Made by a program: the position numbers and the translations under genes | Part shown: positions 10,284 to 46,651 of the stretch, piece by piece | Position numbering within the stretch: position 1 is the stretch's first letter | Layout of the letters: every line of letters begins with the position of its first letter | The notes under the pieces: model-generated | What the model was told of the DNA's origin: nothing | Seen by the model: the letters and a program-made list of their open reading frames with translations, nothing else | The model's database searches: none | NCBI GenBank assembly: GCA_029262055.1 | Contig: JAJDAD010000034.1 | Location: 102,430-166,429 of the forward strand | Direction: 5' to 3' | Source: Candidatus Zhuqueibacterota bacterium | GTDB taxonomy: Bacteria; Zhuqueibacterota; Zhuqueibacteria; Oceanimicrobiales; Oceanimicrobiaceae | DNA length: 64,000 nt

Positions 10284-10308
10284 ACTCAGATAATCCCAAC
10301 TTGAGGAA

Positions 10309-12579: not shown

Positions 12580-12753
12580 ATGAAATGAGACAGATTTTGA
12601 ATACGAACTTGAGGTGCAAGTAACTCGAAACGGTTTTTCATCAAACGGGATGTCACGCGCGTTTTGCTCTGCTATCCGGATTTATACCATTGTTAAGATT
12701 AGAAAACCGGTCCAAATCAAGCGAAATGCCGGGCTGTCTGGGACTAGCCTCCG

Positions 12754-15093: not shown

Positions 15094-15102
15094 GCCTGCG
15101 GA

Positions 15103-16137: not shown

Positions 16138-16430
16138 GAATGTCGACTCAAAAGCAAGTTGTCACGCGTTATCAAAAGAATCTCATTCTCGCCAGGGATG
16201 ATGTCCCCTATCCTGTCGCTACAGTTCGTAAGGCCGGCACCTGTTCCTGTGACTGGGTTGGGGTGGCCTGGATACCGTGATGTGCGTCGGGACCGTGGTG
16301 ACTGACGATCTGGGGCAGTTTTGTTAGACCGATTCATGCCCGCCGCTGCAGCTAATTTCAAACCGGTCGGACTCTTAACATAAAGCGTCAAGTATGAAAC
16401 ATTGACAATAATTGACAATAATAAAATAAT

Positions 16431-17894: not shown

Positions 17895-18274
17895 AGCTCA
17901 TAAGTTGCAATGGAAATGATTGAAAAGTATCAGAAACATCTTAAGTCTGGCCAAAAGGAATGCGCCCCGATCTGGGAGATGCGTTTTCGTTAGTCATCGA
18001 GCAAATTTTGACAGGATACTACCCTATTCAAGTTGACCGTTCCTCCGGGCACGCGATCTAGACGTTTCCTTGGCCTCAGGAAAGCAATAAAATATCGATA
18101 GGATCGTCGGTCGAGTAGAATTTGACTTACAAAAAAGTCAAGACCTGGGTTAATCCTGGTTTCGCAACCGTCGATTTGGACGAATTACTGAATGAAATGG
18201 GCTGGCGGTATTTCGACCGTCGTTGTTACCATTCAAATCCGACATGTTTGTAACAAGAAGAATCGAGGAATTCA

Positions 18275-19384
18275 ATGGCAAAAGTAACCCTAAAAAACGT
18301 GCACAAGTACTATGATGACAATGTTGCGGCAGTCGATAACTTCAACGCTGAAATAGCCGATCGGGAATTCCTCGTGTTGGTAGGACCCTCCGGCTGTGGC
18401 AAATCAACTACGTTGCGCATGATTGCCGGATTGGAGGAGATCAGCTCCGGCGAGCTGTACATCGGTGAAAAGCTGGTCAATGATATTCGTCCGAAAGACC
18501 GGGACATCGCCATGGTGTTTCAAAACTACGCCCTCTATCCACACATGACGGTCTTTGAAAACATGGCGTTCGGGCTGAAGCTCAGGAAGTTCTCTAAAGA
18601 CGAGATAAATACGCGCGTGCAAGACGCCGCTGCCCTCCTGGACATAAGCGCTCTGCTCAACCGAAAACCGAAAGCTCTTTCAGGTGGCCAGCGCCAGAGA
18701 GTTGCTGTGGGGCGGGCAATCGTGCGCAATCCGCAGGTCTTCCTGTTCGATGAGCCCCTGTCGAATCTAGACGCCAAGCTGCGTGTGCAAACGCGTGCCG
18801 AAATCTCGAAGTTGCATTCCCGTCTGCAGACAACCATGATATATGTCACCCACGACCAGGTCGAGGCGATGACTATGGGCGACCGTATCGTTGTCATGAA
18901 AGATGGTCTGATTCAACAGGTCGACACTCCGATGAACTTGTATGATTATCCTGACAACCAGTTTGTGGCTGGTTTTATAGGAAACCCGGCCATGAACCTG
19001 ATAGCCGGCAAAATTGTGCGCGACAATGGACTGTTCTTTCAAGCGGGCACGCTGCGCATTCAACTTACGCAGAACCAGGAGAAGCTGTTGAGCAAATACC
19101 TGGATAAGGAAATGACATTCGGCATTCGTCCCGAGGACATTTACGAGGCAGGGACAAATCATGGCGTCGAAGCCCGGGCGGAAGCTCCTTTGACAGTGGA
19201 GGTAGTCGAACCCATGGGAAATGAGACCTTCCTGTACACTACCACTGGAGCGGATTCACTTACCGTGCGGCTCCGAACGGGTAGTTCCATCAAAGTTAAT
19301 GACCAGGTCGCTGTCGTTTTTGATTTGTCAAAAATTCATTTTTTTGAAACAGATACAGGCAATGCCGTGCGTGCGGCCGCTTGA
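18275..19384 (+). CDS. ABC transporter ATP-binding protein, sugar type (MalK/UgpC/MsmX-like)
   Basis: Walker A GPSGCGKST, signature LSGGQRQRVAVGRA, Walker B VFLFDEPLSNLD, and a C-terminal MalK-like regulatory domain. Confidence 0.9.
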   Translation: MAKVTLKNVHKYYDDNVAAVDNFNAEIADREFLVLVGPSGCGKSTTLRMIAGLEEISSGELYIGEKLVNDIRPKDRDIAMVFQNYALYPHMTVFENMAFGLKLRKFSKDEINTRVQDAAALLDISALLNRKPKALSGGQRQRVAVGRAIVRNPQVFLFDEPLSNLDAKLRVQTRAEISKLHSRLQTTMIYVTHDQVEAMTMGDRIVVMKDGLIQQVDTPMNLYDYPDNQFVAGFIGNPAMNLIAGKIVRDNGLFFQAGTLRIQLTQNQEKLLSKYLDKEMTFGIRPEDIYEAGTNHGVEARAEAPLTVEVVEPMGNETFLYTTTGADSLTVRLRTGSSIKVNDQVAVVFDLSKIHFFETDTGNAVRAAA

Positions 19385-21837: not shown

Positions 21838-23961
21838 GTGGGCATTAATCTGGACACTATCTTTCGGCCTTCCTCAGTAGCAGTGGTTGGAGCATCTGCA
21901 ACCAAGGGCACGTTGGGGCGCGAGATTTTCGATAAATTGCTGGATACCGATTTCAATGGCCCCGTCTATCCGGTAAATCCCAAAGCCAACTACATTCACT
22001 CGGTAAAAGCTTACACTGATTTAGCCTCTATCCCGGGCGAAGTGGATTTGGCGGTCATTGTCGTCCCAAAACAGTTCGTTCTGCAGGTGGTGAGGGACTG
22101 TGCTGACAAGGGCGTAAAGGGCCTGGTCGTCATCACCGCCGGATTCAAGGAGACAGGGGAGGACGGCGCCCGGCAACAGGCTGCCATGGTAGACATTTTG
22201 CGGGCGCACCAAATGCGCATGGTCGGCCCTAACTGCATGGGGGTGATCAACACGGAGCCGGATATTCGCCTCGATACTACGTTTGCGCCTATTGTTCCCA
22301 TGAACGGAAATGTCGCCCTGGCCTCGCAAAGCGGCGCCCTGGGTCAGACGATCCTCGAGCATGCGCACGAGCGCGACCTTGGCATTTCAATGTTCGTTAG
22401 TGTCGGCAACAAAGCCGATATTTCCGGCAATGATCTGCTCGAGTACTGGCATGACGAACCCACGATTGAAGTGATTCTAATGTATCTGGAGAGCTTTGGT
22501 GACCCCGCGAGGTTCTTCCGGTTGGCAAAAGAAGTGAGTTTAAGAAAGACCATTGTGGTGGTCAAGTCGGGCAGAACATCGTCGGGCGCGCGCGCAGCCA
22601 CATCGCACACGGGCGCGTTGGCCGGCACTGATACGGCTTACGACGCTCTGTTTAAACAATGTGGTGTCGTTCGCGCGGATACGATAAACCAGATGTTTGA
22701 TTTCGCCATGGGGTTTTCCAACCTACCGCTGCCGGCTGGCCGGCGCGTGGCCATCATCACAAACGCCGGCGGCCCCGGAATTATGGCCGCCGATGCCTGT
22801 GAGAATCACCATCTGGAGGTCATCGAGTTGGGCCAGAAGACCAGACAGGCACTGCGCGAGCGGCTGGTGCAGGATGCGTCGGTTGAGAACCCGGTCGACC
22901 TGCTTGCCGGCGCCCAGCCCGAGGAATTCCAGGTGGCGTTGGACCTGGTTCTGCATGATCCGGCGGTCGATGCAGTGATCGTCATTTTCGTTGCGCCTGT
23001 GATCACAAGTCCACCAGACGTCGCTTCCAAGATAGCGAAAGCCGCTGCTGGTTTTAACAAACCAGTGCTGGGTTGCTTCATGGGAGTACAAGGGGTAGCT
23101 ACCGGCATTGAGGAGTTACACCGGCACCGCATCCCGGCGTTCGCTTTTCCTGAATCAGCCGCACGAACGCTGGCAGCAATGGTTGACTATAAGCGGTGGC
23201 TGAGTACGGCCGCGAGCCCTGTTCCCAAAATAGACTGTAACAAGGAGCAGGCGTTGCAAGCAATCGCCGGGGCGCAAGCCGCAGGCCGCCAGCTCTTAAC
23301 CCTGGCGGAGTGTTTGCGGGTTTTGCAGGCTTACCAAGTCCCCTTTGTGAAAACAGCCATTGTAGACACCCTGGACAGTCTGTTGGCTGCCGCGGAGGAA
23401 ATGGACTTTCCTCTGGTCTTGAAATGCACCGGCGAAAAGATCGTACACAAATCCGAGTTTGGCGCCGTCAAATTGAATATTACTGACACGGAGGAACTGC
23501 GGGCAGCGCATGCAGAGCTCCTGGCCTCTCTGGGCCGGCACAACATCAAGCCGGCGGCAGTTTCTCTTGTCTTGCAAGAGATGCTGTCGGGCGGGAAGGA
23601 AGTTGTGAGCGGTGTGAGTCGGAACAGCGACCTCGGGCCTCTCGTTATGTTTGGCTTGGGTGGCATCTATGTCGAGTTCCTGAAGGATGTCACTTTCAGA
23701 CTGGCGCCGCTGACTGATTGCGATGCCAGTAACATGATGCAGGAAATACGTTCCTATCCCATCCTTCAGGGCGTTCGCGGCGAGGCGCCGGTGGCTGTTG
23801 ATTTTGCACGCGATGTTCTCCTGAAGCTCTCCCAGCTAAGTTTGGATCTGCCCCAGATTGAGGAAATAGATCTCAATCCAATAGTACTCTACCCGGAGCC
23901 AAGTCGCTGTGCTGCAGTAGATGTGCGAATCGCGATCAGATCCGAATCCGTCGCCAGTTGA
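21838..23961 (+). CDS. ADP-forming acetyl/acyl-CoA synthetase (fused alpha-beta, NDP-forming acyl-CoA ligase family)
   Basis: N-terminal CoA-binding domain (VAVVGASATKG), a succinyl-CoA-synthetase-like ligase-CoA domain and a C-terminal ATP-grasp; 707 aa as for fused ACD enzymes; GTG start. Confidence 0.8.
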   Translation: MGINLDTIFRPSSVAVVGASATKGTLGREIFDKLLDTDFNGPVYPVNPKANYIHSVKAYTDLASIPGEVDLAVIVVPKQFVLQVVRDCADKGVKGLVVITAGFKETGEDGARQQAAMVDILRAHQMRMVGPNCMGVINTEPDIRLDTTFAPIVPMNGNVALASQSGALGQTILEHAHERDLGISMFVSVGNKADISGNDLLEYWHDEPTIEVILMYLESFGDPARFFRLAKEVSLRKTIVVVKSGRTSSGARAATSHTGALAGTDTAYDALFKQCGVVRADTINQMFDFAMGFSNLPLPAGRRVAIITNAGGPGIMAADACENHHLEVIELGQKTRQALRERLVQDASVENPVDLLAGAQPEEFQVALDLVLHDPAVDAVIVIFVAPVITSPPDVASKIAKAAAGFNKPVLGCFMGVQGVATGIEELHRHRIPAFAFPESAARTLAAMVDYKRWLSTAASPVPKIDCNKEQALQAIAGAQAAGRQLLTLAECLRVLQAYQVPFVKTAIVDTLDSLLAAAEEMDFPLVLKCTGEKIVHKSEFGAVKLNITDTEELRAAHAELLASLGRHNIKPAAVSLVLQEMLSGGKEVVSGVSRNSDLGPLVMFGLGGIYVEFLKDVTFRLAPLTDCDASNMMQEIRSYPILQGVRGEAPVAVDFARDVLLKLSQLSLDLPQIEEIDLNPIVLYPEPSRCAAVDVRIAIRSESVAS

Positions 23962-23982
23962 GGTAGAAAAGGCCGTGCCGCG

Positions 23983-24651
23983 ATGTGCTGCCTTCCGGAG
24001 ATTTTCAAAAGAACTAATCCGGCGTTTACATTCTTCCCGTTCGCAACATCAATAGAAAACAAGGAATTCGTGGCCACCATCAATCTTTTCCCGGAAAACG
24101 CGCTGCTGTCCCGCATAAGGGCGAACGACCGCACCGTTCTCGGTGAGCTGTTTGCCCGCTACCGCAGACTTGTCACGAGTCATGTGAAAGCGAACGGCGG
24201 GAACCAAGCAGACGCAGACGACATGCTGCAGGAGGCGATCATTCTCTTGTGGCAGAAGGTCTGTAGCGCAGAGTTCGAGTTGACCTCGAAGCTGGGGACA
24301 TTTTTGTTGGGCGTCGTGAAGAACAAATGGCGGGCCGAGCGCCGCAAACGGTCGCGCATGGTATATGACGGCCTGCCTGCGGATACTCCTGAGTCCGGGC
24401 CGACCATGCTCGACCAGGTCATTTCTGAAGAAAAGAGCAGAGCAATCCAGCGGGCGATGACACGACTGGGATCGCCTTGTAAAGAACTTTTGACCATGTT
24501 CTACTTTGAACAACGCGATACGCGCAGCATCGCCAAAGTGCTTGGCTTTGCCAATGCTAACGTCGTGAAAACCAAAAAATACCAGTGCAAAAAGAGGCTA
24601 GGGGATATCTTGTCAAGCAGGTTGATTAAAGCGCGGGAGACACCCGAATGA
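23983..24651 (+). CDS. ECF-type RNA polymerase sigma-70 factor
   Basis: Region 2 (RTVLGELFARYRRLV...DMLQEAIILLWQ) and a region 4 HTH (CKELLTMFYFEQRDTRSIAKVLGFANANVVKTKKYQCKKRL). The first ~30 aa look non-sigma; an in-frame GTG at 24070 preceded by AAGGA is a plausible true start. Confidence 0.8.
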   Translation: MCCLPEIFKRTNPAFTFFPFATSIENKEFVATINLFPENALLSRIRANDRTVLGELFARYRRLVTSHVKANGGNQADADDMLQEAIILLWQKVCSAEFELTSKLGTFLLGVVKNKWRAERRKRSRMVYDGLPADTPESGPTMLDQVISEEKSRAIQRAMTRLGSPCKELLTMFYFEQRDTRSIAKVLGFANANVVKTKKYQCKKRLGDILSSRLIKARETPE

Positions 24652-25742
24652 GTTGTCGAAAATACACTGAGAATGATTTTGCTGAAGACTATCTTTTGGG
24701 AAAGCTGGGCCCGCAGACGAAGCAGGCGTACGAGCTGCACCTGAGTAATTGCCCGGATTGCCGCGCACGCCTGGAAAAGGAGACTGAACTTGTGGCGGCG
24801 TTTCGTGCGTTTGGACACGCAGAGATGAAGCGCGAGATAGCGCAGCAAGCCGAAGAGCAGCGTGCCGGTTCGGGCGCCTTTAGCTGGCAGGTGCTAACCC
24901 GGGCCGCCGCAGCGCTGGTGATTCTGCTACTTGGGCCGGGTCTGCTGCACCTATATTTTGATGAGGCGCAGGTGGTCGAAGTTAATTCTGTTACGCCGCA
25001 AAGGCCCGTCGCCATATCTGAAGATGAGCTGCCGGCAGATGCATTGTCCGTTGACGTGGCCGGGCCGGGCGTGGATTCCGACAGGCTACCCGCAACCCGG
25101 TCGGCGACAGTGGATGCACAGAAAAGGCCTGAGCGCCGGGCGAAAGACCTGCCCGGGTCAATGTCTGCTTCGGAACCCAGTGCAGTTCGAGAGGAGAAAA
25201 TGATGCTGAAGAAGGATGCCAAAACCGACCGTCGTGGACACACCAGCAGGGAATCGCTGAGCCTGTTTGAACTTGCCGGTACCGAGACCGAGACCGACAG
25301 GGCCGATTCAGACATGAAAATAGCTGAAAAGGCGTCTCTTCCTCCGGAACCCAGCAGGCTGGATGCTGCAGAGTCATCCGTGTTGTCCGGGATGCTGCGC
25401 AGTGCATCCACCGAATCGACCGTGATGGATTTCCAGGTTGGAAACACAAGTGTGGAAATTTATTTCAACCGGCAGGGCGGTCCGCCCGGGCTCCGCCAAA
25501 AGAGCAAGAGCGTGGCATTACCCGATTCGTTCGTGGTGCAAGTGCTCTCAGCAACCTCGGGTAAGATACTTTTGTCATTGGATGTCCCACGGGCCTTTCC
25601 CATTTTGGACCAGGAAACGGTCACAGTCACGCGGCCTGTCCCAAGCGTTCTGCGCCTGCAAATCGGGACAGAATTCTATAGAATTGAACTTCGAGATACG
25701 GCTCCCTTTACAACTTCTGCGATGAAGGAAGAACGGAAATAA
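24648..25742 (+). CDS. anti-sigma factor, zinc-finger type with a single TM helix and a long periplasmic/outer domain
   Basis: Overlaps the sigma gene by 4 nt (ATGA). N-terminal HLSNCPDCRARLEKE putative zinc-finger motif, hydrophobic helix AAAALVILLLGPGLL, low-complexity Ala/Ser/Glu-rich C-terminal region. Confidence 0.65.
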   Translation: MSCRKYTENDFAEDYLLGKLGPQTKQAYELHLSNCPDCRARLEKETELVAAFRAFGHAEMKREIAQQAEEQRAGSGAFSWQVLTRAAAALVILLLGPGLLHLYFDEAQVVEVNSVTPQRPVAISEDELPADALSVDVAGPGVDSDRLPATRSATVDAQKRPERRAKDLPGSMSASEPSAVREEKMMLKKDAKTDRRGHTSRESLSLFELAGTETETDRADSDMKIAEKASLPPEPSRLDAAESSVLSGMLRSASTESTVMDFQVGNTSVEIYFNRQGGPPGLRQKSKSVALPDSFVVQVLSATSGKILLSLDVPRAFPILDQETVTVTRPVPSVLRLQIGTEFYRIELRDTAPFTTSAMKEERK

Positions 25743-25744
25743 CA

Positions 25745-25774
25745 AAGCCGCCACCCAAATGGGTAGCGGCTTTT
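25745..25774 (+). terminator. putative terminator hairpin after the anti-sigma gene
   Basis: aagccgc-(14 nt, internally paired)-gcggctt stem starting 3 nt after the stop codon, followed by a short T run. Confidence 0.35.
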
Positions 25775-25903
25775 ACGAGGGAGGAAAGAAATGAAATTCT
25801 TTATGGGTCGTATGTTGTTTTGACTACTTTTATGTGCAATCATTGTCGCTTGCACACACTATTAGAATCGGCTGCAAACGGGTTTTCCTTTACCAGAAAA
25901 AGA

Positions 25904-25932
25904 TTGACAACCAAACAAAAATATGTTACATT
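25904..25932 (+). promoter_or_regulatory. candidate sigma70-type promoter (TTGACA-17-TACATT) upstream of the STAS gene
   Basis: Perfect -35 hexamer and a 17-nt spacer to a 4/6 -10 hexamer, ~60 nt upstream of the ATG at 25990. Confidence 0.3.
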
Positions 25933-25989
25933 TGCTCAAAATTTCCCCATGATAGCGAGTAAGTTGGTCATTTTTAGGAGGATTCCGTT

Positions 25990-26328
25990 ATGCAAATAAA
26001 CGAGCACCGCGAGGGCGATGTAGCAGTTATTGCGCTGAAAGGCAAGTTGATGGGCGGGCCGGAGACACAGGCTGTCCATGAAAAGATCAAGGAACTCGCG
26101 GAAAACCAGGTCCAGAAAGTTGTGATCGACCTGGGGAAAGTCAAGTGGATGAATAGCTCCGGCCTGGGCGCCATCATGGGATCTCTCACCACTATGAAAT
26201 CCTCGGGCGGCGACCTGAAGCTCGCCAATGTAACTGACAAAGTAAAGAGCCTGTTCATGATCACGAAGCTAGTGACCCTGTTCGACACTCACGAAAGCGT
26301 TGAAGAGGCCGTCGGCAGTTTCAGTTAA
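25990..26328 (+). CDS. STAS-domain anti-sigma-factor antagonist (SpoIIAA-like)
   Basis: 112 aa; STAS layout with the conserved phosphorylatable-Ser context 'KWMNSSGLGAIMG'. Confidence 0.8.
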   Translation: MQINEHREGDVAVIALKGKLMGGPETQAVHEKIKELAENQVQKVVIDLGKVKWMNSSGLGAIMGSLTTMKSSGGDLKLANVTDKVKSLFMITKLVTLFDTHESVEEAVGSFS

Positions 26329-26389
26329 TCCACTCATTTTGTTTCTCCACAGTCCAGGCACATTCGATTAAACTTTCACGGAAAAGGGG

Positions 26390-28057
26390 ATGTCAATGCA
26401 AAAGCGCATACTAAGCGTGAGCTTGTCCGTGACCGCCTTAATACACCTGTTAGCAGGTAGTGCTGTCACTCAGCAGGCTAATCTAAGCCGGGACCTTGAG
26501 CCAGTCATCGTCATGGGAGTGGACCTCAGCGGACTGGACGGCGTTCCGCTGGCGGAGTTGTTTCTGTACAAATATGATAGCGCCGCCGGCTGGCAACAAA
26601 TTCCTTTTCAAATAGATGAAAAAGGGTCAATCGATGGCGGGGCGCCTGACTACTTCGTGCCTGATGACGGGCTTCTGGACGCCGATGACGAGCTTTCATT
26701 CATGGCAAAAGACGGGGGAGACCTCGCAGCAAACAGTTGGATCGAAGATCCCGCTTCACAGACCTTTGGCCGGTACCAAATAGAAGTATCTAACCCTTTG
26801 GCGGCAGGCGAGGCCAACTGGGTCTATCTTTACCGCTCATCTTCACTGACAACAGATCCGAATCTCGCAGACTATATTTCGTGGTCACCTTCGGCGAATC
26901 CCGCAAGTCCGGGCCAGGACCGGATCAGCAGCCAATTCTACGAGATAGGACATGGCGAAAATGGTTTCCCGAACGACCTGCTTATCACGCAGGCCGGCGG
27001 TGGCAACGGGCAAGACATAATGGATCGCCTCAAGTTCAGGGCGACCATCCCCTTTCTTGGCTCCAGCTTGCCACTAGATGAAGATGACATCCAATTCCTT
27101 GCGAGTGAAAATGATTCCCTCCGCATCATAGACGGTAAAATACGTATCATACGAGAACTCAACGCTTCCATTAATTTCCTGGGCGCCCTCCCGTTCAGTT
27201 CCCCGCCATTGTTCTACTATCCATACTCGCTGGAGTTTGATGTCAGGGTTCCCACGGTTGCCGGTCTTCTGACTTCTTTGAATAGTGGCCGAGTCTCCCT
27301 GGATCTGAACAGCAATGCGTCGGGCATGAACCTGGTCAGCGCCAACAATTCTGTCCCGGGTTTCACTGTCGATGGCACTGCGGATCCAGTTGATCGGACC
27401 GTAGATAATGTCTTACCTGGCGGCAACTGGTTCTACCTGAATGGCCCACAAGGTACGGTGGTTCACCTCTTTCCGCTTGGCACAAATGTCGGTGATACGC
27501 GTCTGCTCTATTACGAAGACAGCAACCCGACACCCGGCTCGGATGATACCGGCGACGGCCAGTCTTTCGGAGATACCGGGATCGACATTATTGGGAATAT
27601 TGCCCTGCCGCTGACCATGGGGTATCGTGGCTACTTTTTGGATAGCAATCGTTCCAGCCAGGTTGGCGCAGAAATCGCGTCGTATGAAGCGAACAAGCTC
27701 GTTACCGCTGCCAGCAACCAGAGCTTCGGCGATGTCACGTCTGTCCGGGAGACCGGTGGCACTGAATTGCCTAAATCTTTCACCCTGTTTCAGAACCATC
27801 CGAATCCGTTCAATCCATCTACCGAAATCCGCTATTCGATCGATCGTACTTTCAAGGGCGCTGTCATTCTGAAGATCTATAATCTGCTCGGGTATGAACT
27901 GAAGACCCTGGTAAACGAACCGCAAACCCGGGGGAGTTACGAGGTACGTTGGGACGGCAGCGATAGCAAGGGCAGACAAGTCGGCTCTGGTGTTTACATC
28001 TACCGTCTGCAAGCCGGCGACTTGCTCGAGTCGCGCAAAATGTTGCTCATCAGATAG
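26390..28057 (+). CDS. secreted protein of unknown function with a C-terminal T9SS sorting domain (Por secretion tail)
   Basis: N-terminal signal peptide. C-terminal ~80 aa 'FQNHPNPFNPSTEIRYSI...VYIYRLQAGDLLESRKMLLIR' match the type-A T9SS CTD. The N-terminal ~450 aa are paralogous to the next ORF. Confidence 0.8.
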   Translation: MSMQKRILSVSLSVTALIHLLAGSAVTQQANLSRDLEPVIVMGVDLSGLDGVPLAELFLYKYDSAAGWQQIPFQIDEKGSIDGGAPDYFVPDDGLLDADDELSFMAKDGGDLAANSWIEDPASQTFGRYQIEVSNPLAAGEANWVYLYRSSSLTTDPNLADYISWSPSANPASPGQDRISSQFYEIGHGENGFPNDLLITQAGGGNGQDIMDRLKFRATIPFLGSSLPLDEDDIQFLASENDSLRIIDGKIRIIRELNASINFLGALPFSSPPLFYYPYSLEFDVRVPTVAGLLTSLNSGRVSLDLNSNASGMNLVSANNSVPGFTVDGTADPVDRTVDNVLPGGNWFYLNGPQGTVVHLFPLGTNVGDTRLLYYEDSNPTPGSDDTGDGQSFGDTGIDIIGNIALPLTMGYRGYFLDSNRSSQVGAEIASYEANKLVTAASNQSFGDVTSVRETGGTELPKSFTLFQNHPNPFNPSTEIRYSIDRTFKGAVILKIYNLLGYELKTLVNEPQTRGSYEVRWDGSDSKGRQVGSGVYIYRLQAGDLLESRKMLLIR

Positions 28058-28140
28058 CGTTACTAACAACCACATAAGTTTCCCGATAGGCTTTTGCGCC
28101 TACTGCTACAACACCTGCTCGGGGCAAAAGGAGGAGGAGA

Positions 28141-30060
28141 ATGCTTAGATGTTTTCCTGCACCGAGGCTTGTTGTATTACTCTTGCTAGGGTTGCTGGCA
28201 TCAAAAGCCTTTGCTGAGAACTTTGACCGCAACTTGGAGCCGGTGGTCGTTTCCGGGGACGCTTTTTCTTTCCTGGCAGAGCATCCGGTCTCCGCGTTGT
28301 TCTTGTACGCTTTTCGGGCCGAAAGTCAGACCTGGCAGCAGATACCTTTTCAAATTGATGAGAGGGATGCCAGCGGGAGTTTTTTCAATGCCGGCGGAGA
28401 CGAGACGTTGGGCCTGGACGCAAACGACGATTTGGTTTTCATGACAAAAGACGGAGGCAGCAAGAACGACTTCTCTTGGATTGCAGACCTGGACTCACGC
28501 AATTTCGTTCGTTACGAGATTGGTGTAAAGGACCCACTGAGCGGCGGGGTGGTTTTTGCCTACCTGTACGCCTCCAATCAACTGCTACCGGATCCAAATC
28601 TCACGGATTATGTGACATATAACCCGGCTCCGTCGGGGAGCCCCGGAGAGGATGGCGTGGCTTCAATTTTTTATGATATGCAACACGGCGCCAACGGTTT
28701 GCCCGAGGACATCAGTGTTACTGCCCTGGGTGGCGGCAGCGCCGTGGACCTTCTCGACCGGCTTAAGTTCAGGGCCGGGGCGTCTCTCATCATCAATGTA
28801 AACGTCACTGAGGATGCTCTCCGGTTTGAGGACGGCGACTTTGTCAGGGCGCGCGATGGTATGATCAGGGTCATCCGCGAAGTGAAAGCAACCATGAACA
28901 TCCGACTTGGCTTTTTTGGCAGCTTAAATGTGGACATGCCGATTATGCCGACCGTATTCTATCCCTACTCCAGCTCTTTGAGCATTCGCATACCTGAAAT
29001 CGGCAGCGCCTCCGTGTCCGACGGCCGGATCTCACTGGATCTTAACTCAAGCGCAAACGGTATGAAATTCGTCAGCGCCAACAACCCGGAACCGGGGTTC
29101 GCGATCGACGGTCAGCCGGACGAACACGTGCGTGAAGTGGATAGCGTGCTGCCCTCAGGTAATTGGATTCACACGGGCGGAACCGCAGGCACGATTGTCA
29201 GCCTTTTCCCGATAGAGCTAACGGTCGGCGGCCGGCGGGAATTCTACTACAAAGATGATTCGGGCAACGATGGCGACGATACCGGCGATGGTCGAAGTTT
29301 CGCGGACGCCGGCATTTCAATGCTAGATGGTGTGGCGACGCCATTCACAATCGGGTACAAGGGCTATTATCTTGCCCGGGATCTGCCGAGTACAACCAGC
29401 AGCGATATTGCATCTTTTGAAGCGAATCCGTTCCAACTTACCGTGATTCCTGAAGATTTTGCCACAGTGCCGGTAGAACTGGTGAGTTTCTCCAGTCAGG
29501 TTCTCGATGAAGAAATTTTGCTAACCTGGGACACTGCCACAGAAAGCAACAACCTGGGCTTTGAAGTCGAGCGCAGGTTCGCAGAAGCGGAAGCGTGGCA
29601 GAACCTGGGGTTTGTCCGCGGGAAAGGGACTACCAGCGTGCCGCAGGCGTACGAGTTTGCCGACCGCGATCTCAGCGCGGGACTGCGGGAATACCGGCTA
29701 AAACAAATTGACACTGACGGGAGCTTCGAATACTCAAATATGATCCAGGTGACGGTTACCAGACCGGTGGTATTCGCACTGCATCAGAATTTCCCTAATC
29801 CCTTCAATCCTGCGACGATCATTAATTTCGAGGTGTCAGACAAGGCGGGTTCGCAGGCAATCCAGACGTCTTTGACTGTATTTGATGTTCTTGGCCGTGA
29901 GGTTGCCGGTTTATTGAATGACAGCTTGCCCGCCGGCACGCACTCGGTTATCTGGGATGGTACTGGAAGTGACGGACTACCGGCCGCTTCCGGACTGTAC
30001 ATATATCGTTTGCAGTCAGGGAATTCCGTGCAAACCCGGAAAATGCTGCTTTTGCGTTAG
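28141..30060 (+). CDS. secreted protein, paralogue of 26390-28057, with an extra Ig/FN3-like module and a T9SS C-terminal sorting domain
   Basis: Signal peptide. Shared blocks with the upstream ORF (LEPVVV..., WQQIPFQIDE, DRLKFRA, RISLDLNS, VSANN..PGF, DDTGDG.SF). Extra module VELVSFSS...LTWDTATESNNLGFEVERR...YRLKQIDTDGSFEYS. CTD LHQNFPNPFNPATIINFEV...LYIYRLQSGNSVQTRKMLLLR. Confidence 0.8.
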   Translation: MLRCFPAPRLVVLLLLGLLASKAFAENFDRNLEPVVVSGDAFSFLAEHPVSALFLYAFRAESQTWQQIPFQIDERDASGSFFNAGGDETLGLDANDDLVFMTKDGGSKNDFSWIADLDSRNFVRYEIGVKDPLSGGVVFAYLYASNQLLPDPNLTDYVTYNPAPSGSPGEDGVASIFYDMQHGANGLPEDISVTALGGGSAVDLLDRLKFRAGASLIINVNVTEDALRFEDGDFVRARDGMIRVIREVKATMNIRLGFFGSLNVDMPIMPTVFYPYSSSLSIRIPEIGSASVSDGRISLDLNSSANGMKFVSANNPEPGFAIDGQPDEHVREVDSVLPSGNWIHTGGTAGTIVSLFPIELTVGGRREFYYKDDSGNDGDDTGDGRSFADAGISMLDGVATPFTIGYKGYYLARDLPSTTSSDIASFEANPFQLTVIPEDFATVPVELVSFSSQVLDEEILLTWDTATESNNLGFEVERRFAEAEAWQNLGFVRGKGTTSVPQAYEFADRDLSAGLREYRLKQIDTDGSFEYSNMIQVTVTRPVVFALHQNFPNPFNPATIINFEVSDKAGSQAIQTSLTVFDVLGREVAGLLNDSLPAGTHSVIWDGTGSDGLPAASGLYIYRLQSGNSVQTRKMLLLR

Positions 30061-30177
30061 GATGATCGGTGTGTTCATGTTAGCCTGCATAATTCATAAA
30101 TCACCTAATCATCCTGGAAGGATCTTCTCCGACAAAGTTTGTGCTTATCGAACGTCACTGGGCTTTATGGTGCCAGA

Positions 30178-30217
30178 GAGATTAACCCCGATTTCCCGCG
30201 AGTTCATGAATTATTCA
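30178..30217 (+). repeat. 40-bp intergenic direct repeat, copy 1 (gagattaacc...agttcatgaattattca)
   Basis: 34/40 identical to the copy at 30417-30456; immediately followed by three tandem NNCACGAAG 9-mers. Confidence 0.6.
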
Positions 30218-30368
30218 CCACGAAGTTCACGAAGGGCACGAAGAAAAAACCTGTATTCGCCGAGGAGTGGTCATCCTCAAGTACTTAGATCCATGAAGAT
30301 TACAGTGCCATGGTGCACAAGATTTCAAATCTCTTTTTCTTCCTTCGTGAACTTCGTGTGCTTCGTGG
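30218..30368. repeat. inverted pair of triple 9-bp iteron arrays (3x NNCACGAAG at 30218-30243; 3x inverted at 30343-30368) flanking ~100 bp
   Basis: Arm 1 is ccacgaag-ttcacgaag-ggcacgaag. The reverse complement of arm 2 is ccacgaag-cacacgaag-ttcacgaag. That gives six CACGAAG heptamers in 150 bp. Confidence 0.55.
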
Positions 30369-30416
30369 TTAAGAACTAATCCGAATTGCACGCTTTTATA
30401 TGTTATTGCTCTCAAG

Positions 30417-30456
30417 GAGATTAACCTTGATTCTCTGCAAGTTCATGAATTATTCA
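30417..30456 (+). repeat. 40-bp intergenic direct repeat, copy 2
   Basis: 85% identical to 30178-30217; lies 60 bp upstream of the radC start. Confidence 0.6.
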
Positions 30457-30515
30457 GGTAGATGAAGGAGGGCATCTTGCGATGATCGTCAGGCTCACTA
30501 ATCCCGACTTCTGCT

Positions 30516-31223
30516 GTGTCGGCGGGTATTAACTTGGCAAGATACACACCGAAAATTCCCGACTGGCCCGAAAGCGAACGCCCACGCGAACGCCTGATCA
30601 AATTTGGCGCTGCCGGCCTGTCGGATGCCGAGATTCTGGCGATTTTGCTAAGAGTCGGAAATCATGAGACCACCGCAATCGATCTTGCACGTCACATCAT
30701 AAACGATTTCGGCGGATTTCGTGGCCTGGACTCGCGATCAGTGGCGGAACTGTGCGAAGTGGCTGGCGTCGGACCGGCCAAAGCAGCGCAAATAAAGGCT
30801 GCAATCGAACTGGGGAAACGCTTATTTCTTGAGGAAGCTGCACCCCAAAGTAAAGTAGAGAGCAGCGAAGATGTTTTCAAACTTGTCAGCCCACATCTAC
30901 AGAATTTGAACCACGAAGTTTTCAGGATTCTGCTGCTTACCAGCCGCAACGCGGTCATCGCCGACAAAGTCATGTTTGCAGGCAGTTTGACTGAGAGCAT
31001 CGTCAGCCCGCGTGAGATCATAAAAGAGGCAATCAATCAGGCAGCGGCTTCCGTGGTTTTTGTCCATAATCATCCCTCGGGGGACCCTGCACCGAGCAAT
31101 GAGGACAAGCGCGTAACCAGCCATCTCAAGCAAGCTTGTGAAATGGTCGGCGTAAATGTGCTGGACCATATTATTGTGGCAAATTCAAAGTACTATAGTT
31201 TTGCTGATTCAGGCTTGTTCTAA
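30516..31223 (+). CDS. radC: RadC-family JAB/MPN-domain protein
   Basis: N-terminal helix-hairpin-helix region (ERPRERL...LSDAEILAILLRVG) and a C-terminal JAMM motif HNHPSGDPAPSNED. Confidence 0.85.
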   Translation: MSAGINLARYTPKIPDWPESERPRERLIKFGAAGLSDAEILAILLRVGNHETTAIDLARHIINDFGGFRGLDSRSVAELCEVAGVGPAKAAQIKAAIELGKRLFLEEAAPQSKVESSEDVFKLVSPHLQNLNHEVFRILLLTSRNAVIADKVMFAGSLTESIVSPREIIKEAINQAAASVVFVHNHPSGDPAPSNEDKRVTSHLKQACEMVGVNVLDHIIVANSKYYSFADSGLF

Positions 31224-33702: not shown

Positions 33703-34548
33703 ATGGACGATGTGAAAACCCTTGTTCGTAGTGTCAAGAGTATATCCAGTTTACCCACTGTGTTCATCAAAGTGGGCGAGTTGATAGAAGACCCGGAAAG
33801 TTCTGCAGTGCAGGTGGGTCAGGTGATTGAGAATGACCCGGCCCTGACTTCCAAGTTACTCCAGTTGGCGAACTCGGCGTTTTACGGATTTCGAGGGCGC
33901 ATAGAAACGGTGACCAGGGCGGTGTCCATTATTGGTTTCAAGCAACTCAAGGACCTTGTCCTGGCAATATCGGTGCGATCCACCTTCGGAGAGTTTGAAG
34001 ATAACAGCATGCTGACCATGAAAAAATTCTGGGAGCATTGCATTGCCAGCGGGATTGCCTGCAGGGTGTTGTCGGTCTATCAGGGCAATCGCGCCTGCGA
34101 AAGCGCATTTGTCGCCGGATTCCTACACGACCTCGGGCGTCTGCTCTTGTTGGAACGTTATCCGGAAAAATGTCTGCGGATCTACGAAATTGCCCGGGAG
34201 GAAGGCAGAGCACCCGAGGAAATCGAAAGAGAGGTTTTCGGTTTCACACACGCTGATGTCGGGTCCGAGCTGGTGCGGACCTGGAATCTCCCGGCTTCGC
34301 TCGCCGCCGCCATCGCTTTCCACCATTGCCCTTCGCAAGCGAACGAGCACGCGAAACTGGCATCGATTGTACACGTTGCAGACGTCATCGTGCATTCATG
34401 CGAAATGGGGACAAGCGGCAACTTCCGTGTTCCAGCGCTCGATAAGGAGGCATGGAAGGCAACCGGACTCAAAAGCAGTGCCTTAAACCCAGCAGTCCTA
34501 AAACTACATGAGCAATTCGAAGAAACAACCGCTTTCTTCCTGAACTGA
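33703..34548 (+). CDS. HDOD-domain signalling protein
   Basis: HDOD consensus over the first ~200 aa (PTVFIKVGELIEDPESSAVQVGQVIENDPALTSKLLQLANSAFYGF...VSIIGFKQLKDLVLAISV). Confidence 0.75.
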   Translation: MDDVKTLVRSVKSISSLPTVFIKVGELIEDPESSAVQVGQVIENDPALTSKLLQLANSAFYGFRGRIETVTRAVSIIGFKQLKDLVLAISVRSTFGEFEDNSMLTMKKFWEHCIASGIACRVLSVYQGNRACESAFVAGFLHDLGRLLLLERYPEKCLRIYEIAREEGRAPEEIEREVFGFTHADVGSELVRTWNLPASLAAAIAFHHCPSQANEHAKLASIVHVADVIVHSCEMGTSGNFRVPALDKEAWKATGLKSSALNPAVLKLHEQFEETTAFFLN

Positions 34549-34580
34549 GCTGAGTTTTTTACCAAAAGAATCCTTATGGC

Positions 34581-36887
34581 ATGGGCGATTCTAAAATAAA
34601 ATATCTTGAAAAGAGAGTGGCACACCTGGAAAAGGTCAACCAGAAGGTGCTTGCCGCCCTTGAATCCATAAAGAGTATTGCCAGATTTCAGAGTAAAATC
34701 GGTAACAAGTATGACCTGTCTCGAATTTTGGAAGAGAGCAGAGACGAAATACTGCACCTGATCAATTTTAAGAGTGTGACCTTTTTTCTTTATGATGAAG
34801 AATCTGTCGAGTTCATCCCGCAGCACTTTTATCCTGCTTTCCTGAAAGAAGATCTGCAAAAGGAAATTGACAAACAAATCGAGCAGGGTATGTTTGCCTG
34901 GGCTCTGGGCCAGAATGCTCCGGTGGTGACCAAGCCACTGCATCTGGATACGGGTCATGAGATTGTCCTGCATGCCCTGGCGGCTGACAATGATACGTTC
35001 GGGATGTTTGTGGGGCAATTGTCAGTTGCGAAAAAACATATCGACAGTGAGACTCTGGATGTCCTGAACATCGCCCTGATGACTACCTCCCTGGCGGTGG
35101 AAAATGCCCGGCTCTACCACGGTATTGAAGAGGCCAACAGCAGCTTGCAACGCAGGGTGGAAGCGAGAACAGCGGCGCTCGCTCAGCTGAATAGCGAACT
35201 ACAGGACGAGATTGCCGACAGGAAACGAATAGAAGAAGAATTGCAGGCGGCCAAAGATCAGGCGGAGTCCAGCAGCAAAGCCAAGAGTGAATTTCTGGCC
35301 AATATGAGCCATGAAATCCGCACGCCAATGAACGCGATCATCGGCATGACGGACCTCACCCTGGAAACGGACTTGACTCAGGAACAAAGAGAGAACGTCG
35401 ACGTTGTCGCATCTGCTTCAGAGGGTCTGCTCAACCTCATCAACGATATCCTGGATTTTTCAAAAATTGAAGCTGGTCAGATAGAGTTGGAGGATGTGGA
35501 TTTCAGTGTGGCTGATCTCGTGACCGAGGTGGTCAAGATTCTCGCGGTCGGAGCTGAAAAGAAGAACTTAAGACTGCTTTCCGATGTCGCCTCTGACATT
35601 CCTGATAAGGTTGTTGGGGACTCGACCAGGATACGGCAGATACTATTGAATCTTGCCAACAACGCGATCAAATTCACCGACACGGGTGAGGTTGCCCTCG
35701 AAGTTAAGATAAATCAGACGGTGGTCGGTCCAGCCCGACCTGACGCTGAACTGGATCTGCACTTTTCAGTACGCGATACAGGCATAGGGATTTCGACCGA
35801 GAATCTTCAGAAAATCTTCGACAAGTTCTCTCAAGCTGACAGCTCGATGAATCGCAGATTCGGCGGGACCGGGCTGGGTTTAAGTATTTCCAAGCGGCTG
35901 GTTGGGCTAATGGGCGGCGAAATGTGGGTGGAAAGCCAACCGGAAAAGGGAAGCACATTTCATTTTAACCTGATTCTCCCTGCCGTGCACGGCCAGGAGT
36001 CAAAGGCATTGGAGCCGCTGGAACGAACAGCCCTGGTTGTTAGCGCGAATGACACGAATCGTCTCATTCTTGCCAGGACCCTGAACAGGCAAGAATTCAA
36101 AGTGTATCAGGGAACAAGCATCCAAAGCGCTCTTTCTGTTTTGAAGAAGTCATCACCACAGGTTAACGTCGCTTTCTTGGATCATGACATGCCCGCAATG
36201 GATGGTATCGAGCTTGCGAAGAAAATCCGAGCAGATGAAAGCTACTCCGCTTTGCGAATCATCATGCTCTGCCCGGGTGATTCGGCAAGCCGGGAGGAAT
36301 TAGAGGGAGTTGCTATCTCGGATTGCTTAATCAAACCGGTTAAGCAGGCGAAGCTGCTCGATTGTATCAAAGATCTCAGCGCTAAACCGAAAGCACCAAA
36401 GATAGTTGCGGCGGGTAGGAGTGACAAAAAGAACACAGCGTCTCAGGCCGGCTTGATCCTCGTCGCGGAAGACAGTCCGGTGAGCCAGAAAATTGCCTGT
36501 AAGGTTTTGGAAAAAGAAGGATATTCCGTGGATCTGGCAGAGAACGGTAAGAAGGCTGTCGGACTGGCGCGCGACCGAACCTATGACTTGGTCCTGATGG
36601 ATGTCTGCATGCCTGTCATGGATGGTCTGGAAGCGACACAGGAGATTAGGGAGTTTGAGCGAACTTCAGGCAAAAGCCCGGTTCCCATTGTCGCGTGGAC
36701 GTCACAGACCATAGCCGAGTATCGTGAACAGTGCCTGAGCCACGGCATGGATGACTACCTGTCAAAAGCGGTGCACCAGGCCGGTTTGCTGGAAATGGCA
36801 AACAAGTGGATTGGCAATCCGGTCGCAGTACGGGTAGTCAACGATGTAACAGAAGGGAGGACCTTACGGCAGGTTGCCGACAGGTGA
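34581..36887 (+). CDS. hybrid sensor histidine kinase / response regulator (N-terminal GAF-like sensor, HisKA, HATPase_c, two receiver domains)
   Basis: H-box [21 protein letters not shown]-boxes ([26 protein letters not shown]), two REC domains with conserved Asp ([10 protein letters not shown]; [11 protein letters not shown]). Confidence 0.9.
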
Positions 36888-38453: not shown

Positions 38454-38506
38454 CCTCGGACACAACAGGCGTATCCGGGGCAAAATGGAAAGGTTCTGGC
38501 ATTCAG

Positions 38507-40871: not shown

Positions 40872-40928
40872 TCGTAGTGCGAGTTACTGTTCGGCCAAAC
40901 TCATTTTAGGGCTCAAAGGGCTGAGGAT

Positions 40929-41645: not shown

Positions 41646-41646
41646 G

Positions 41647-45422: not shown

Positions 45423-45463
45423 GTAAACAAGGCACTTTAACGACAAAGATAGGATAACATACG

Positions 45464-46582: not shown

Positions 46583-46651
46583 TATCGGCAACGGACTCTT
46601 CCTGATTTGGTAGATGTCCACAGTCCCCTAAAACGTAATCGTAGGAGCATC

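What the first reader, a model, noticed from the sequence alone, without database searches (positions are those of the whole stretch)
23983..30060. ECF sigma / zinc-finger anti-sigma / STAS antagonist cassette directly upstream of two tandem paralogous T9SS-sorted secreted proteins
A complete partner-switching-style regulatory set precedes two large secreted proteins of 555 and 639 aa. The set comprises an ECF sigma, a membrane anti-sigma with a long low-complexity extracytoplasmic domain, and a separate STAS anti-anti-sigma preceded by its own promoter-like element. The two secreted proteins are clear paralogues over ~450 aa. They share several conserved blocks, including Asp-rich DDTGDG segments, but have no recognisable catalytic signature. 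Both end in type-A T9SS C-terminal sorting domains. The second has an added Ig/FN3-like module. This looks like a dedicated, signal-controlled pair of surface or secreted effectors of unknown function.
Basis: partly seen in the sequence, partly recalled or inferred. Interest (0 to 1): 0.6.

Follow-up and report, generated by a model that had tools for sequence, protein, structure and literature searches.

The report
STAS gene plus T9SS cargo operon
An ordinary stress-type sigma/anti-sigma gene pair sits next to, but appears independent of, a widely conserved operon in which a small STAS switch protein is followed by one or two secreted surface proteins whose unannotated domain has a sugar-handling fold.

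Summary
All five genes are real. They are an ECF sigma, a zinc-finger membrane anti-sigma, a STAS protein, and two paralogous T9SS-sorted proteins (44% identical over 433 aa).

They do not form one partner-switching cassette. The sigma/anti-sigma pair is a self-contained module. It has its own conserved promoter (CGTTTAC-N17-CATnAA), which occurs only once in the 64-kb window. A stable hairpin follows it. Its orthologues sit among unrelated genes elsewhere, and only one relative (L168) shares this placement.

The conserved unit is a sigma-70-like promoter (TTGACA-N17-TGTTACATT), then STAS, then one or two cargo genes. I found it in 11 loci with differing flanks. All four STAS-orthologue look-ups showed it, three of them chosen without bias. 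Genomes that lack the sigma pair still have it.

No kinase-type anti-sigma or PP2C phosphatase was found in the ORFs scanned.

The likely role is cell-surface glycan binding or cleavage. Why STAS is coupled to it remains unexplained.

The parts
21838..23961 (+). Flanking gene: ADP-forming acetyl-CoA synthetase-like CoA ligase (707 aa). It serves as a synteny anchor and is not part of the system.
   Evidence: CoA_binding/Succ_CoA_lig/ATP-grasp_5. An orthologue lies upstream of STAS in L001, L003, L085, L094 and L168.
24023..24052 (+). Candidate autoregulated ECF promoter, CGTTTAC-N17-CATCAA, about 18 nt upstream of the probable GTG start.
   Evidence: The same bipartite motif with the same 17-nt spacer lies upstream of the sigma orthologues in L168, L169 and L170. 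It has one exact occurrence in the 64-kb window. That it functions as a promoter is inferred.
24070..24651 (+). ECF sigma factor. The ORF is open from ATG 23983, but the probable start is GTG 24070, giving 193 aa.
   Evidence: Sigma70_r2, and TIGR02937 at 64.2 bits. It is 52% identical to the L168 sigma, aligned from window residue 30. Orthologues are 190-193 aa.
24648..25742 (+). ZAS-type single-pass membrane anti-sigma (364 aa). It has an N-terminal Cys3 + H-x3-C-x2-C zinc motif, a TM segment at about 82-100, a polar biased linker at 106-250 and a C-terminal region at 251-364.
   Evidence: zf-HC2 at 25.8 bits. It overlaps the sigma stop by 4 nt. The N-terminal 100 aa are conserved in the partners of sigma orthologues.
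25744..25775 (.). GC-rich hairpin immediately after the anti-sigma stop codon, followed by TTTT. It is the probable terminator of the upstream unit.
   Evidence: Flagged by the terminator scan. RNA MFE is -20 kcal/mol, z = -3.7, and 0 of 200 shuffles fold as well. An analogous hairpin sits upstream of the STAS promoter in L003, which has no sigma cassette.
25904..25932 (+). Sigma-70-like promoter of the STAS-cargo operon: TTGACA-17-(TG)TTACATT.
   Evidence: It is the best promoter-like site in the region, 10 of 12 matches plus the TG. It is conserved nearly base for base upstream of STAS in L168, L001, L003, L085 and L171, with weaker versions in L121, L172 and L174.
25990..26328 (+). Single-domain STAS protein (SpoIIAA/RsbV-like anti-sigma-factor antagonist, 112 aa) with a conserved WMNS[ST]GLG motif (Ser56).
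   Evidence: PF01740 at 52.8 bits, TIGR00377 at 69.2 bits. It is 90% identical to the L168 orthologue and 67-83% identical to more than 100 other orthologue clusters. The Ser is invariant in 10 aligned orthologues.
26396..28057 (+). Cargo paralogue P4 (553 aa from ATG 26396; the ORF is open from 26390). It has a signal peptide, an N-terminal beta-sandwich, a galactose-mutarotase-like supersandwich (residues about 30-450) and a T9SS type A C-terminal domain (about 470-555).
28141..30060 (+). Cargo paralogue P5 (639 aa). It has the same N-terminal head (residues about 27-445), an added FN3/Ig-like module (about 446-540; nt 29476-29760) and a T9SS type A C-terminal domain (551-639).
   Evidence: 44% identical to P4. 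AF2 model with pLDDT 88.8. Tandem-FN3 and PorU matches. TIGR04183 at 31.5 bits.
30516..31223 (+). Flanking gene: RadC-like JAB protein. It is recurrently downstream of the cargo genes and serves as a synteny anchor. Whether it belongs to the unit is unknown.
   Evidence: RadC lies downstream of the family member in L001, L003, L167, L168, L171, L174 and L100.

Best explanation
The region holds two independent modules that happen to be neighbours.

Module A (about 24023-25775) is a standard autoregulated ECF sigma / ZAS-type membrane anti-sigma pair. The two genes are translationally coupled. The module has its own promoter and a terminator-like hairpin. In one sub-lineage it became inserted between the CoA-ligase gene and the STAS gene. 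Nothing indicates that it controls the adjacent cargo genes.

Module B (about 25904-30060) is an old, conserved operon. A housekeeping-type promoter drives a phosphorylatable SpoIIAA/RsbV-like STAS protein and, 67 nt downstream, two tandem paralogues of a large uncharacterised family of secreted proteins.

The inferred route of the cargo is Sec export, then translocation and surface attachment by the type IX system through the C-terminal sorting domain. The cargo presents an N-terminal head (a small beta-sandwich plus a galactose-mutarotase-like supersandwich) that most likely binds or cleaves a glycan at the cell surface.

The STAS protein is inferred to act through a kinase or phosphatase encoded elsewhere. 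It would couple a cytoplasmic signalling state to production or deployment of this cargo.

Shown: gene content, domain assignments, fold, conservation patterns, promoter motifs. Inferred: co-transcription, T9SS export, a glycan substrate, and any STAS-cargo regulatory link.
For: Module separation:
- The CGTTTAC-N17-CATnAA motif is conserved upstream of four orthologous sigma genes.
- It has one exact hit in the window, before the sigma gene. No + strand hit with 2 or fewer mismatches lies before STAS, P4 or P5, in the window or in L168.
- The hairpin after the anti-sigma gene has MFE -20 kcal/mol, z -3.7.
- The STAS promoter TTGACA-N17-TGTTACATT is conserved in loci with the sigma pair (window, L168) and without it (L001, L003, L085, L171).

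Sigma portability:
- Orthologues at 56-59% identity keep the ZAS partner but have unrelated neighbours.
- Zero sigma or anti-sigma hits turned up in 83 cargo-family loci.

STAS-cargo unit:
- STAS lies directly upstream, on the same strand, with a gap of -4 to 81 nt, in the window and in L168, L001, L003, L085, L121, L171, L172, L173 and L174; L094 has the same STAS-upstream order.
- The upstream flanks differ between these loci (CoA ligase; M61 peptidase/240-aa protein; cyclase).
- All 4 STAS-orthologue look-ups, 3 of them unbiased, found a family member next door.
- 30 of the top 120 STAS clusters share an exact longest-contig length with a cargo cluster. Only 2 sigma clusters do, namely the window and L168.
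- STAS is 90% identical between the window and L168. The sigma is 52%, the anti-sigma 27% and the cargo 54%.

Fold and family:
- pLDDT is 90.
- The domain is always N-terminal after a signal peptide and defines about 2,094 clusters at 50% identity.
- It is fused only to spacer modules (FN3, cohesin, PKD) and the T9SS C-terminal domain.
Against: - Co-transcription is not shown. A weak internal promoter-like site lies inside STAS at 26234-26261.
- The sigma pair's position is shared by L168, so the adjacency is not unique. Read-through or an unrecognised ECF promoter cannot be excluded.
- The ECF motif rests on only four sequences.
- About 60 more distant family members lack an upstream STAS, so the coupling is clade-specific.
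- RadC is also recurrently downstream, so part of the conservation may be inert synteny.
- The fold match is only at superfold level (6-11% identity). No catalytic residues could be mapped. The same fold occurs in non-catalytic domains (the GH38 C-terminal region, the YidC P1 domain, OpgG).
- No T9SS machinery gene was found in the window, so export is inferred from the C-terminal domain alone. The TIGR04183 score for P4 is only just above cut-off.
Confidence: 0.6

Rival explanations
1. The ECF sigma, the anti-sigma and STAS form one signal-controlled regulatory set. The anti-sigma senses an envelope signal, STAS modulates it, and the released sigma transcribes the two cargo genes as dedicated effectors.
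For: All five genes are adjacent on one strand. The same order, sigma / anti-sigma / STAS / cargo, recurs in L168. ECF regulons often include neighbouring genes (general knowledge).
Against: - There is no GHKL-kinase anti-sigma or PP2C in the cassette or in the window ORFs scanned.
- ZAS anti-sigmas are not known STAS partners (my own knowledge).
- The conserved ECF promoter motif is absent before STAS, P4 and P5.
- The STAS promoter is sigma-70-like and is identical in genomes without the sigma pair.
- Sigma orthologues sit elsewhere with other neighbours.
- STAS and cargo persist without the sigma in at least 8 loci.
Confidence: 0.1
2. The STAS-cargo adjacency is inherited gene order with no functional coupling. 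STAS is a general partner-switching component with its own promoter, and the cargo genes are expressed independently.
For: - RadC, which has no obvious link, is also conserved downstream.
- STAS evolves far more slowly than the cargo: 67-90% against 30-55% identity.
- Many distant family members have no STAS.
- A weak promoter-like site lies inside STAS.
Against: - The pair stays contiguous while the upstream flanks change completely (L121, L172-L174 against the window).
- Gaps are short, and L121 has a 4-nt overlap.
- The sigma pair inserted upstream of the unit rather than within it.
- The only strongly conserved promoter lies before STAS.
- No terminator-like site lies between STAS and P4.
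Confidence: 0.2
3. The cargo head is not carbohydrate-directed. It would be an adhesin, a structural surface-layer component or a protein-binding module, with the supersandwich serving only as a scaffold.
For: - No catalytic motif or sequence family matches.
- Fusions are only to scaffold or adhesion-type modules: cohesin, PKD, FN3, a beta-propeller, and once an Omp85 barrel.
- The supersandwich fold also occurs in non-enzymatic contexts such as the YidC P1 domain.
- The conserved Asp-rich DTGD..GD.G loop could be a structural Ca2+ site (this is inference).
Against: Nearly all top structural neighbours are carbohydrate-active or carbohydrate-binding proteins. The many conserved Asp/Glu/Trp/Tyr/Arg positions are typical of sugar-binding sites, though not specific to them.
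Confidence: 0.25

Closest known systems
ECF sigma / ZAS (zf-HC2) anti-sigma pairs, for example the SigR-RsrA or RpoE-ChrR class (named from my own knowledge)
   Same: A two-domain sigma (regions 2 and 4). A co-transcribed, overlapping anti-sigma gene with an H-x3-C-x2-C zinc motif plus an upstream Cys. A conserved candidate autoregulatory promoter.
   Different: The anti-sigma is membrane-anchored, with a roughly 260-aa extracytoplasmic part that has no known domain. The -35-like element CGTTTAC is not the common GGAAC type. The regulon is unknown.
SpoIIAA/RsbV-type partner-switching modules. STAS proteins that control surface or secretion functions (Bordetella BtrV for type III secretion, Vibrio fischeri SypA for Syp polysaccharide) are analogies from my own knowledge.
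   Same: A single-domain STAS of about 112 aa with the conserved phosphorylatable Ser in a DSSGLG-like motif, NS[ST]GLG.
   Different: No cognate GHKL kinase or PP2C phosphatase is encoded nearby, in the window or in any relative's locus. The gene is instead followed by T9SS cargo. The literature library returned nothing for that pairing.
Galactose-mutarotase-like beta-supersandwich domains: aldose 1-epimerases, the GH38 C-terminal region, GH174 endo-1,3-fucanases, PL4 and PL26 rhamnogalacturonan lyases
   Different: Sequence identity is only 6-11%. There is no Pfam, NCBIfam or PDB sequence match. An extra conserved N-terminal beta-sandwich carries the W-x2-IPFQ-[IF]-DE motif. Catalytic residues were not mapped.
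T9SS type A C-terminal-domain cargo of the FCB group (TIGR04183 / Por_Secre_tail)
   Same: An N-terminal signal peptide. A functional head, optional FN3/Ig spacers, and a sorting domain of about 85 aa at the extreme C-terminus with the NxPNPFNP motif.
   Different: The host lineage is KSB1/Calditrichota-like rather than Bacteroidota, judging by the names of homologues. The head domain is an undescribed family.

Membership tests
ECF (group IV) sigma-70 factor | Sigma region 2 and region 4 only, about 170-220 aa | tested here: met
   PF04542 at 38.1 bits (cut-off 24). TIGR02937 at 64.2 bits (cut-off 42.9). Region 4 (PF08281) is below cut-off at 19.2 against 25.7 bits.
ECF (group IV) sigma-70 factor | Cognate anti-sigma encoded immediately downstream | tested here: met
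   4-nt overlap with a zf-HC2 protein. The pairing is conserved in L168, L169 and L170.
ECF (group IV) sigma-70 factor | Autoregulated ECF-type promoter upstream | tested here: inconclusive
   A conserved bipartite motif, CGTTTAC-N17-CATnAA, lies upstream of four orthologues. Promoter activity was not tested.
ZAS (zf-HC2) anti-sigma factor | H-x3-C-x2-C zinc-binding motif in an N-terminal anti-sigma domain | tested here: met
   PF13490 at 25.8 bits (cut-off 22.2). HLSNCPDC plus Cys3 are conserved in orthologues.
Partner-switching module (SpoIIAA-SpoIIAB-SpoIIE / RsbV-RsbW-RsbU) | STAS antagonist with a phosphorylatable Ser | tested here: met
   TIGR00377 at 69.2 bits. Ser56 in WMNSSGLG is invariant in 10 orthologues.
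Partner-switching module (SpoIIAA-SpoIIAB-SpoIIE / RsbV-RsbW-RsbU) | Anti-sigma that is a GHKL (HATPase_c) Ser kinase | tested here: not met
   The anti-sigma is zf-HC2 plus a TM segment, with no HATPase domain. No such gene is among the window ORFs scanned or in the neighbourhoods of relatives. Small ORFs and the rest of the genome were not examined.
Partner-switching module (SpoIIAA-SpoIIAB-SpoIIE / RsbV-RsbW-RsbU) | PP2C (SpoIIE/RsbU) phosphatase | tested here: not met
   None is in the window ORFs scanned or in related loci. It may be encoded elsewhere in the genome.
T9SS type A CTD cargo | C-terminal sorting domain (TIGR04183 / PF18962) at the extreme C-terminus | tested here: met
   TIGR04183 scores 23.3 bits for P4 and 31.5 bits for P5, against a cut-off of 23. 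Pfam PF18962 is below cut-off.
T9SS type A CTD cargo | N-terminal Sec signal peptide | tested here: met
   A basic n-region followed by a hydrophobic stretch in the first 25-30 residues of both proteins. No dedicated predictor was run.
T9SS type A CTD cargo | T9SS machinery (PorU/PorV/SprA/GldKLMN) in the same genome | not testable with these tools
   None is in the 64-kb window. The rest of the genome was not available.
Galactose-mutarotase-like supersandwich superfold | Fold-level similarity to solved members | tested here: met
GH174 / PL4 / PL26 / GH38 / aldose 1-epimerase (as family member) | Sequence-level family membership and conserved catalytic residues | tested here: not met
   The profile search against all PDB sequences found 0 hits at E<=10. 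There are no Pfam or NCBIfam hits. Structural identity is 6-11%.

The most novel reading that the evidence does not exclude
In KSB1/Calditrichota-type bacteria, a highly conserved SpoIIAA-like STAS protein would be the dedicated cytoplasmic switch for one family of type IX-secreted surface proteins. Its phosphorylation state would gate production, secretion or surface deployment of a glycan-handling cargo. This would be a partner-switching input into type IX secretion, with no described precedent. The cargo head would be a new carbohydrate-active or carbohydrate-binding family built on a mutarotase-like supersandwich.
Probability: 0.2. Interest if true: 0.6.

Novelty: new variant of a known kind. 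Interest (0 to 1): 0.4.

Why it matters
The sigma/anti-sigma pair is routine. Two things are worth keeping.

1. The cargo belongs to a large family (about 2,100 clusters at 50% identity) of secreted proteins from poorly studied FCB-group lineages. It has no Pfam model and a confidently predicted carbohydrate-type fold. That makes it a candidate new CAZyme or glycan-binding family for organisms known only from metagenomes.

2. A cytoplasmic STAS switch protein is consistently paired with that secreted cargo under one conserved promoter. No paper in the searched library mentions such a pairing.

If the coupling is functional, it gives a concrete handle on how non-Bacteroidota T9SS cargo is regulated. 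If it is not, the case is a useful warning that adjacent regulator genes need not form one circuit.

Tried and rejected
- The genome-contig scan with the full-length alignment was dominated by the generic T9SS C-terminal-domain motif QNYPNPFN. It returned unrelated cargo and was not informative. I repeated the scan with the N-domain only in metagenome contigs.
- The afdb50 fold library was unavailable.
- The profile search against PDB sequences found nothing at E<=10.
- The Rfam scan of 23800-30600 found nothing at E<=1.
- Four literature searches (STAS or anti-sigma antagonist with T9SS; KSB1 with T9SS) returned 0 papers. The GH174 review gave critical residues but no fold description.
- Pfam survey of the neighbours of distant family members. 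The only recurrent upstream partners were STAS (5 loci) and a MerR-family regulator (4 loci); in L004 that gene is divergent. The only recurrent downstream partner was RadC.
- The first greedy ORF picker mis-called antisense ORFs at the STAS positions in L001 and L003. I corrected those by hand.
- I considered that the hairpin at 25744-25775 belongs only to the sigma operon. An analogous hairpin in L003, which has no sigma pair, shows that it predates the insertion.
Nothing better than 3 mismatches to the conserved motif was found.

Full report
**Observation**

- The first is an ECF sigma. Sigma70_r2 scores 38.1 bits and TIGR02937 scores 64.2 bits, both above cut-off. Orthologues are 190-193 aa and align from window residue 30. 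The real start is therefore probably GTG 24070, not ATG 23983.
- The second overlaps the sigma stop by 4 nt. It carries a zf-HC2 motif at 25.8 bits. Cys3 and H-x3-C-x2-C are conserved in orthologous partners. It has one TM segment at about residues 82-100, a polar linker biased towards A/S/E/D/R (106-250), and a C-terminal part of ordinary composition.
- The third is a 112-aa single-domain STAS. PF01740 scores 52.8 bits and TIGR00377 scores 69.2 bits.
- P4 and P5 are 44% identical over 433 aa (E 1e-101), including the DDTGDG block. Their C-terminal domains are 43% identical.
- Both reach the curated cut-off of the T9SS type A sorting-domain model TIGR04183. P4 does so only barely, at 23.3 against 23 bits. 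P5 scores 31.5 bits.
- No Pfam or NCBIfam model covers residues about 30-450 of either protein.
- P5's extra segment (about 446-540) is modelled as an all-beta module. Together with the C-terminal domain it matches tandem FN3 pairs.

**Are the three regulators one cassette?**

The evidence says they are not, for four reasons.

First, the domain logic fails. Partner switching needs a GHKL-kinase anti-sigma and normally a PP2C phosphatase (established knowledge of SpoIIAA/AB/E and RsbV/W/U). The anti-sigma here is a ZAS-type membrane protein. I found no HATPase_c-type anti-sigma or SpoIIE-type phosphatase in the window ORFs scanned. None appeared in relatives' neighbourhoods either.

Second, the transcription signals separate the two modules.
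- Upstream of the sigma gene lies CGTTTAC-N17-CATCAA (24023-24052).
- The same bipartite motif, with the same spacer, precedes the orthologous sigma genes in L168, L169 and L170, whose upstream sequences are otherwise unrelated.
- The motif has one exact occurrence in the 64-kb window. The two hits at 2 mismatches are on the - strand, and the total of 3 hits is no more than chance would give (5.1 expected).
- A variable-spacer scan found nothing better than 3 mismatches before STAS, P4 or P5, in the window or in L168.
- A GC-rich hairpin follows the anti-sigma stop directly. Its MFE is -20 kcal/mol with z -3.7.
- STAS has a separate promoter, TTGACA-17-(TG)TTACATT, at 25904-25932. It is conserved almost base for base in L168, L001, L003, L085 and L171, so it is present with or without the sigma pair.

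Third, the comparative context separates them.
- Close relatives L001, L003, L085 and L094 have CoA ligase, STAS, cargo and (where the contig extends) RadC, with no sigma pair.
- Only L168 shares the window's arrangement.
- None of the 83 cargo-family loci searched contained a sigma or anti-sigma homologue.
- Sigma orthologues at 56-59% identity keep the ZAS partner but sit beside VWA/TPR genes or GlnA/Cas genes.
- The sigma pair is therefore a portable two-gene module that became inserted upstream of STAS in one sub-lineage.

Fourth, conservation levels differ sharply. Between the window and L168, STAS is 90% identical, the sigma 52%, the anti-sigma 27% and the cargo 54%.

**What is conserved**

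STAS immediately precedes a family member in 11 loci: the window, L168, L001, L003, L085, L094, L121, L171, L172, L173 and L174.

- For the ten loci measured, both genes are on the same strand with gaps of -4 to 81 nt; L094 shows the same STAS-upstream order.
- The upstream flanks vary. They include the CoA ligase, an OmpA-like gene, M61 peptidase with a 240-aa protein, and a cyclase.
- Family membership of the downstream genes was confirmed with an N-domain HMM, at E from 3e-51 to 5e-89.
- All four STAS orthologues I looked up, three chosen without regard to the cargo, had a family member next door.
- As a proxy, 30 of the top 120 STAS clusters share an exact longest-contig length with a cargo cluster. 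Four of those contigs are only 2.8-4.1 kb long. Only the window and L168 match in this way for the sigma.
- The phosphorylatable Ser (Ser56, in WMNS[ST]GLG) is invariant.
- The coupling is clade-specific. About 60 more distant family members lack an upstream STAS.
- RadC is also recurrently downstream, so part of the pattern could be inert synteny.

**The cargo**

AlphaFold2 with a 68-sequence alignment gives a confident model for P4 (pLDDT 90.1, pTM 0.78).

- The model has a small beta-sandwich (about 38-150). This carries the family's most conserved motif, W-x2-IPFQ-[IF]-DE ... D-x-[ND]-DEL-x-F.
- A large beta-supersandwich follows (about 160-445), then the C-terminal domain.
- Foldseek agrees, with E 4e-7 for GH38 and 6e-5 for PL26.
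- Sequence identity is only 6-11%. A profile search of all PDB sequences found nothing. This is a fold assignment, not family membership.
- A profile search of 1.84 billion representatives found 2,094 clusters at E<=1e-3, 525 of them at E<=1e-30. In all but one of the 150 listed hits the domain starts within the first ~80 residues (most at ~20-50), after the presumed signal peptide; P0234 carries it at 863-1237.
- Longer members add only FN3, cohesin, PKD or beta-propeller modules before the C-terminal domain. One is fused to an Omp85 barrel. None is fused to a known catalytic domain.
- Names given to homologues point to candidate division KSB1 and Calditrichota.

**Most likely mechanism**

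Module A is a standard autoregulated ECF/ZAS envelope-signal or redox-signal unit with an unidentified regulon.

Module B is an operon driven by a housekeeping-type promoter.
- Its cargo is Sec-exported, T9SS-translocated and displayed on the surface. This is inferred from the signal peptide and the C-terminal domain.
- The N-terminal head binds or cleaves a glycan. This is inferred from the fold and from the many conserved acidic, aromatic and Arg positions.
- STAS is a phosphorylatable partner-switching component whose kinase or phosphatase lies elsewhere.
- Why it travels with this cargo is unexplained. Precedents for STAS proteins controlling secretion or surface polysaccharide (BtrV, SypA; my own knowledge) make a regulatory link plausible but unproven.

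**Novelty and score**

- The sigma/anti-sigma pair is ordinary.
- The cargo family is an unannotated but large family with a known fold.
- The conserved STAS-cargo pairing has no match in the searched literature.
- I rate the region a new variant of known kinds, with moderate interest (0.4).

Noticed in passing
window 25744-25833; L003 9408-9500: The hairpin after the anti-sigma gene is followed by a strong Shine-Dalgarno sequence (GAGGGAGG) and a 10-codon ORF (ATG 25801 to TGA 25833, MKFFMGRMLF*). L003, which has no sigma cassette, has an analogous A-rich / hairpin / GGAGGAGG / ATGAAAT... element between the CoA ligase and the STAS promoter. The element therefore predates the sigma insertion. 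It could be a terminator or a leader peptide; I did not resolve which. Rfam has no match.
   Followed up: partly
L157 173-2803: A distant family member has the N-terminal supersandwich head fused to an Omp85-superfamily beta-barrel (PF01103, residues 499-829) instead of a T9SS C-terminal domain. This would be an alternative way of anchoring the same head at the outer membrane.
   Followed up: no
L172 9561-12342; L173 8991-12342: In two KSB1 loci the STAS-cargo pair is followed by a giant (>1,500 aa) T9SS protein with DUF5060, apiosidase-like, PKD and FG-GAP domains. This is a carbohydrate-active-type neighbour and is consistent with a glycan-related role for the cargo.
   Followed up: no
L121 3989-7411; L172-L174 upstream of STAS: GIY-YIG nuclease, M61 glycyl aminopeptidase with PDZ, and an unannotated protein of about 240 aa recur upstream of STAS in L172-L174 (the GIY-YIG gene is absent from L121). 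This is a second conserved synteny, different from the CoA-ligase flank of the window.
   Followed up: no
window 30516-31223 and L001, L003, L167, L168, L171, L174, L100: A RadC-like JAB protein lies directly downstream of the cargo gene or genes in at least eight loci, across 30-55% cargo identity. I could not tell whether it belongs to the unit or is only a synteny remnant.
   Followed up: partly
window 37179-48025: A cluster of aconitase, two pyridine-nucleotide-disulphide oxidoreductase-family genes (Pyr_redox_3 at 38507-39487; Pyr_redox_2 + dimerisation domain at 39471-40871), lipoate ligase, an ATP-citrate-lyase-like trio (ATP-grasp_2/Citrate_bind, CoA_binding/Ligase_CoA, Citrate_synt C-terminal part), isocitrate dehydrogenase and PrpD. 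It suggests a reductive or reversible TCA module.
   Followed up: no
window 48956-50821 and 57849-59099: There are two NADH-dehydrogenase 49-kDa subunit genes in one Nuo region. One is fused to the 30-kDa subunit (621 aa) and the other stands alone (416 aa). An HdrD-like CCG/4Fe-4S protein follows at 59190-61193.
   Followed up: no
window 7285-19384: A sugar ABC transporter (SBP_bac_8, permeases, MalK-like ATPase) lies with two GH130 beta-mannoside phosphorylase-like genes (11635-12579, 16431-17894) and two GT4 glycosyltransferases. This carbohydrate locus is upstream of the cassette but is not syntenic with it in relatives.
   Followed up: no
window 33703-36887: An HDOD-domain protein is followed by a hybrid GAF-HisKA-HATPase-REC-REC histidine kinase, 3.6 kb downstream of P5. 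It is a signalling pair with no evident link to the cassette.
   Followed up: no
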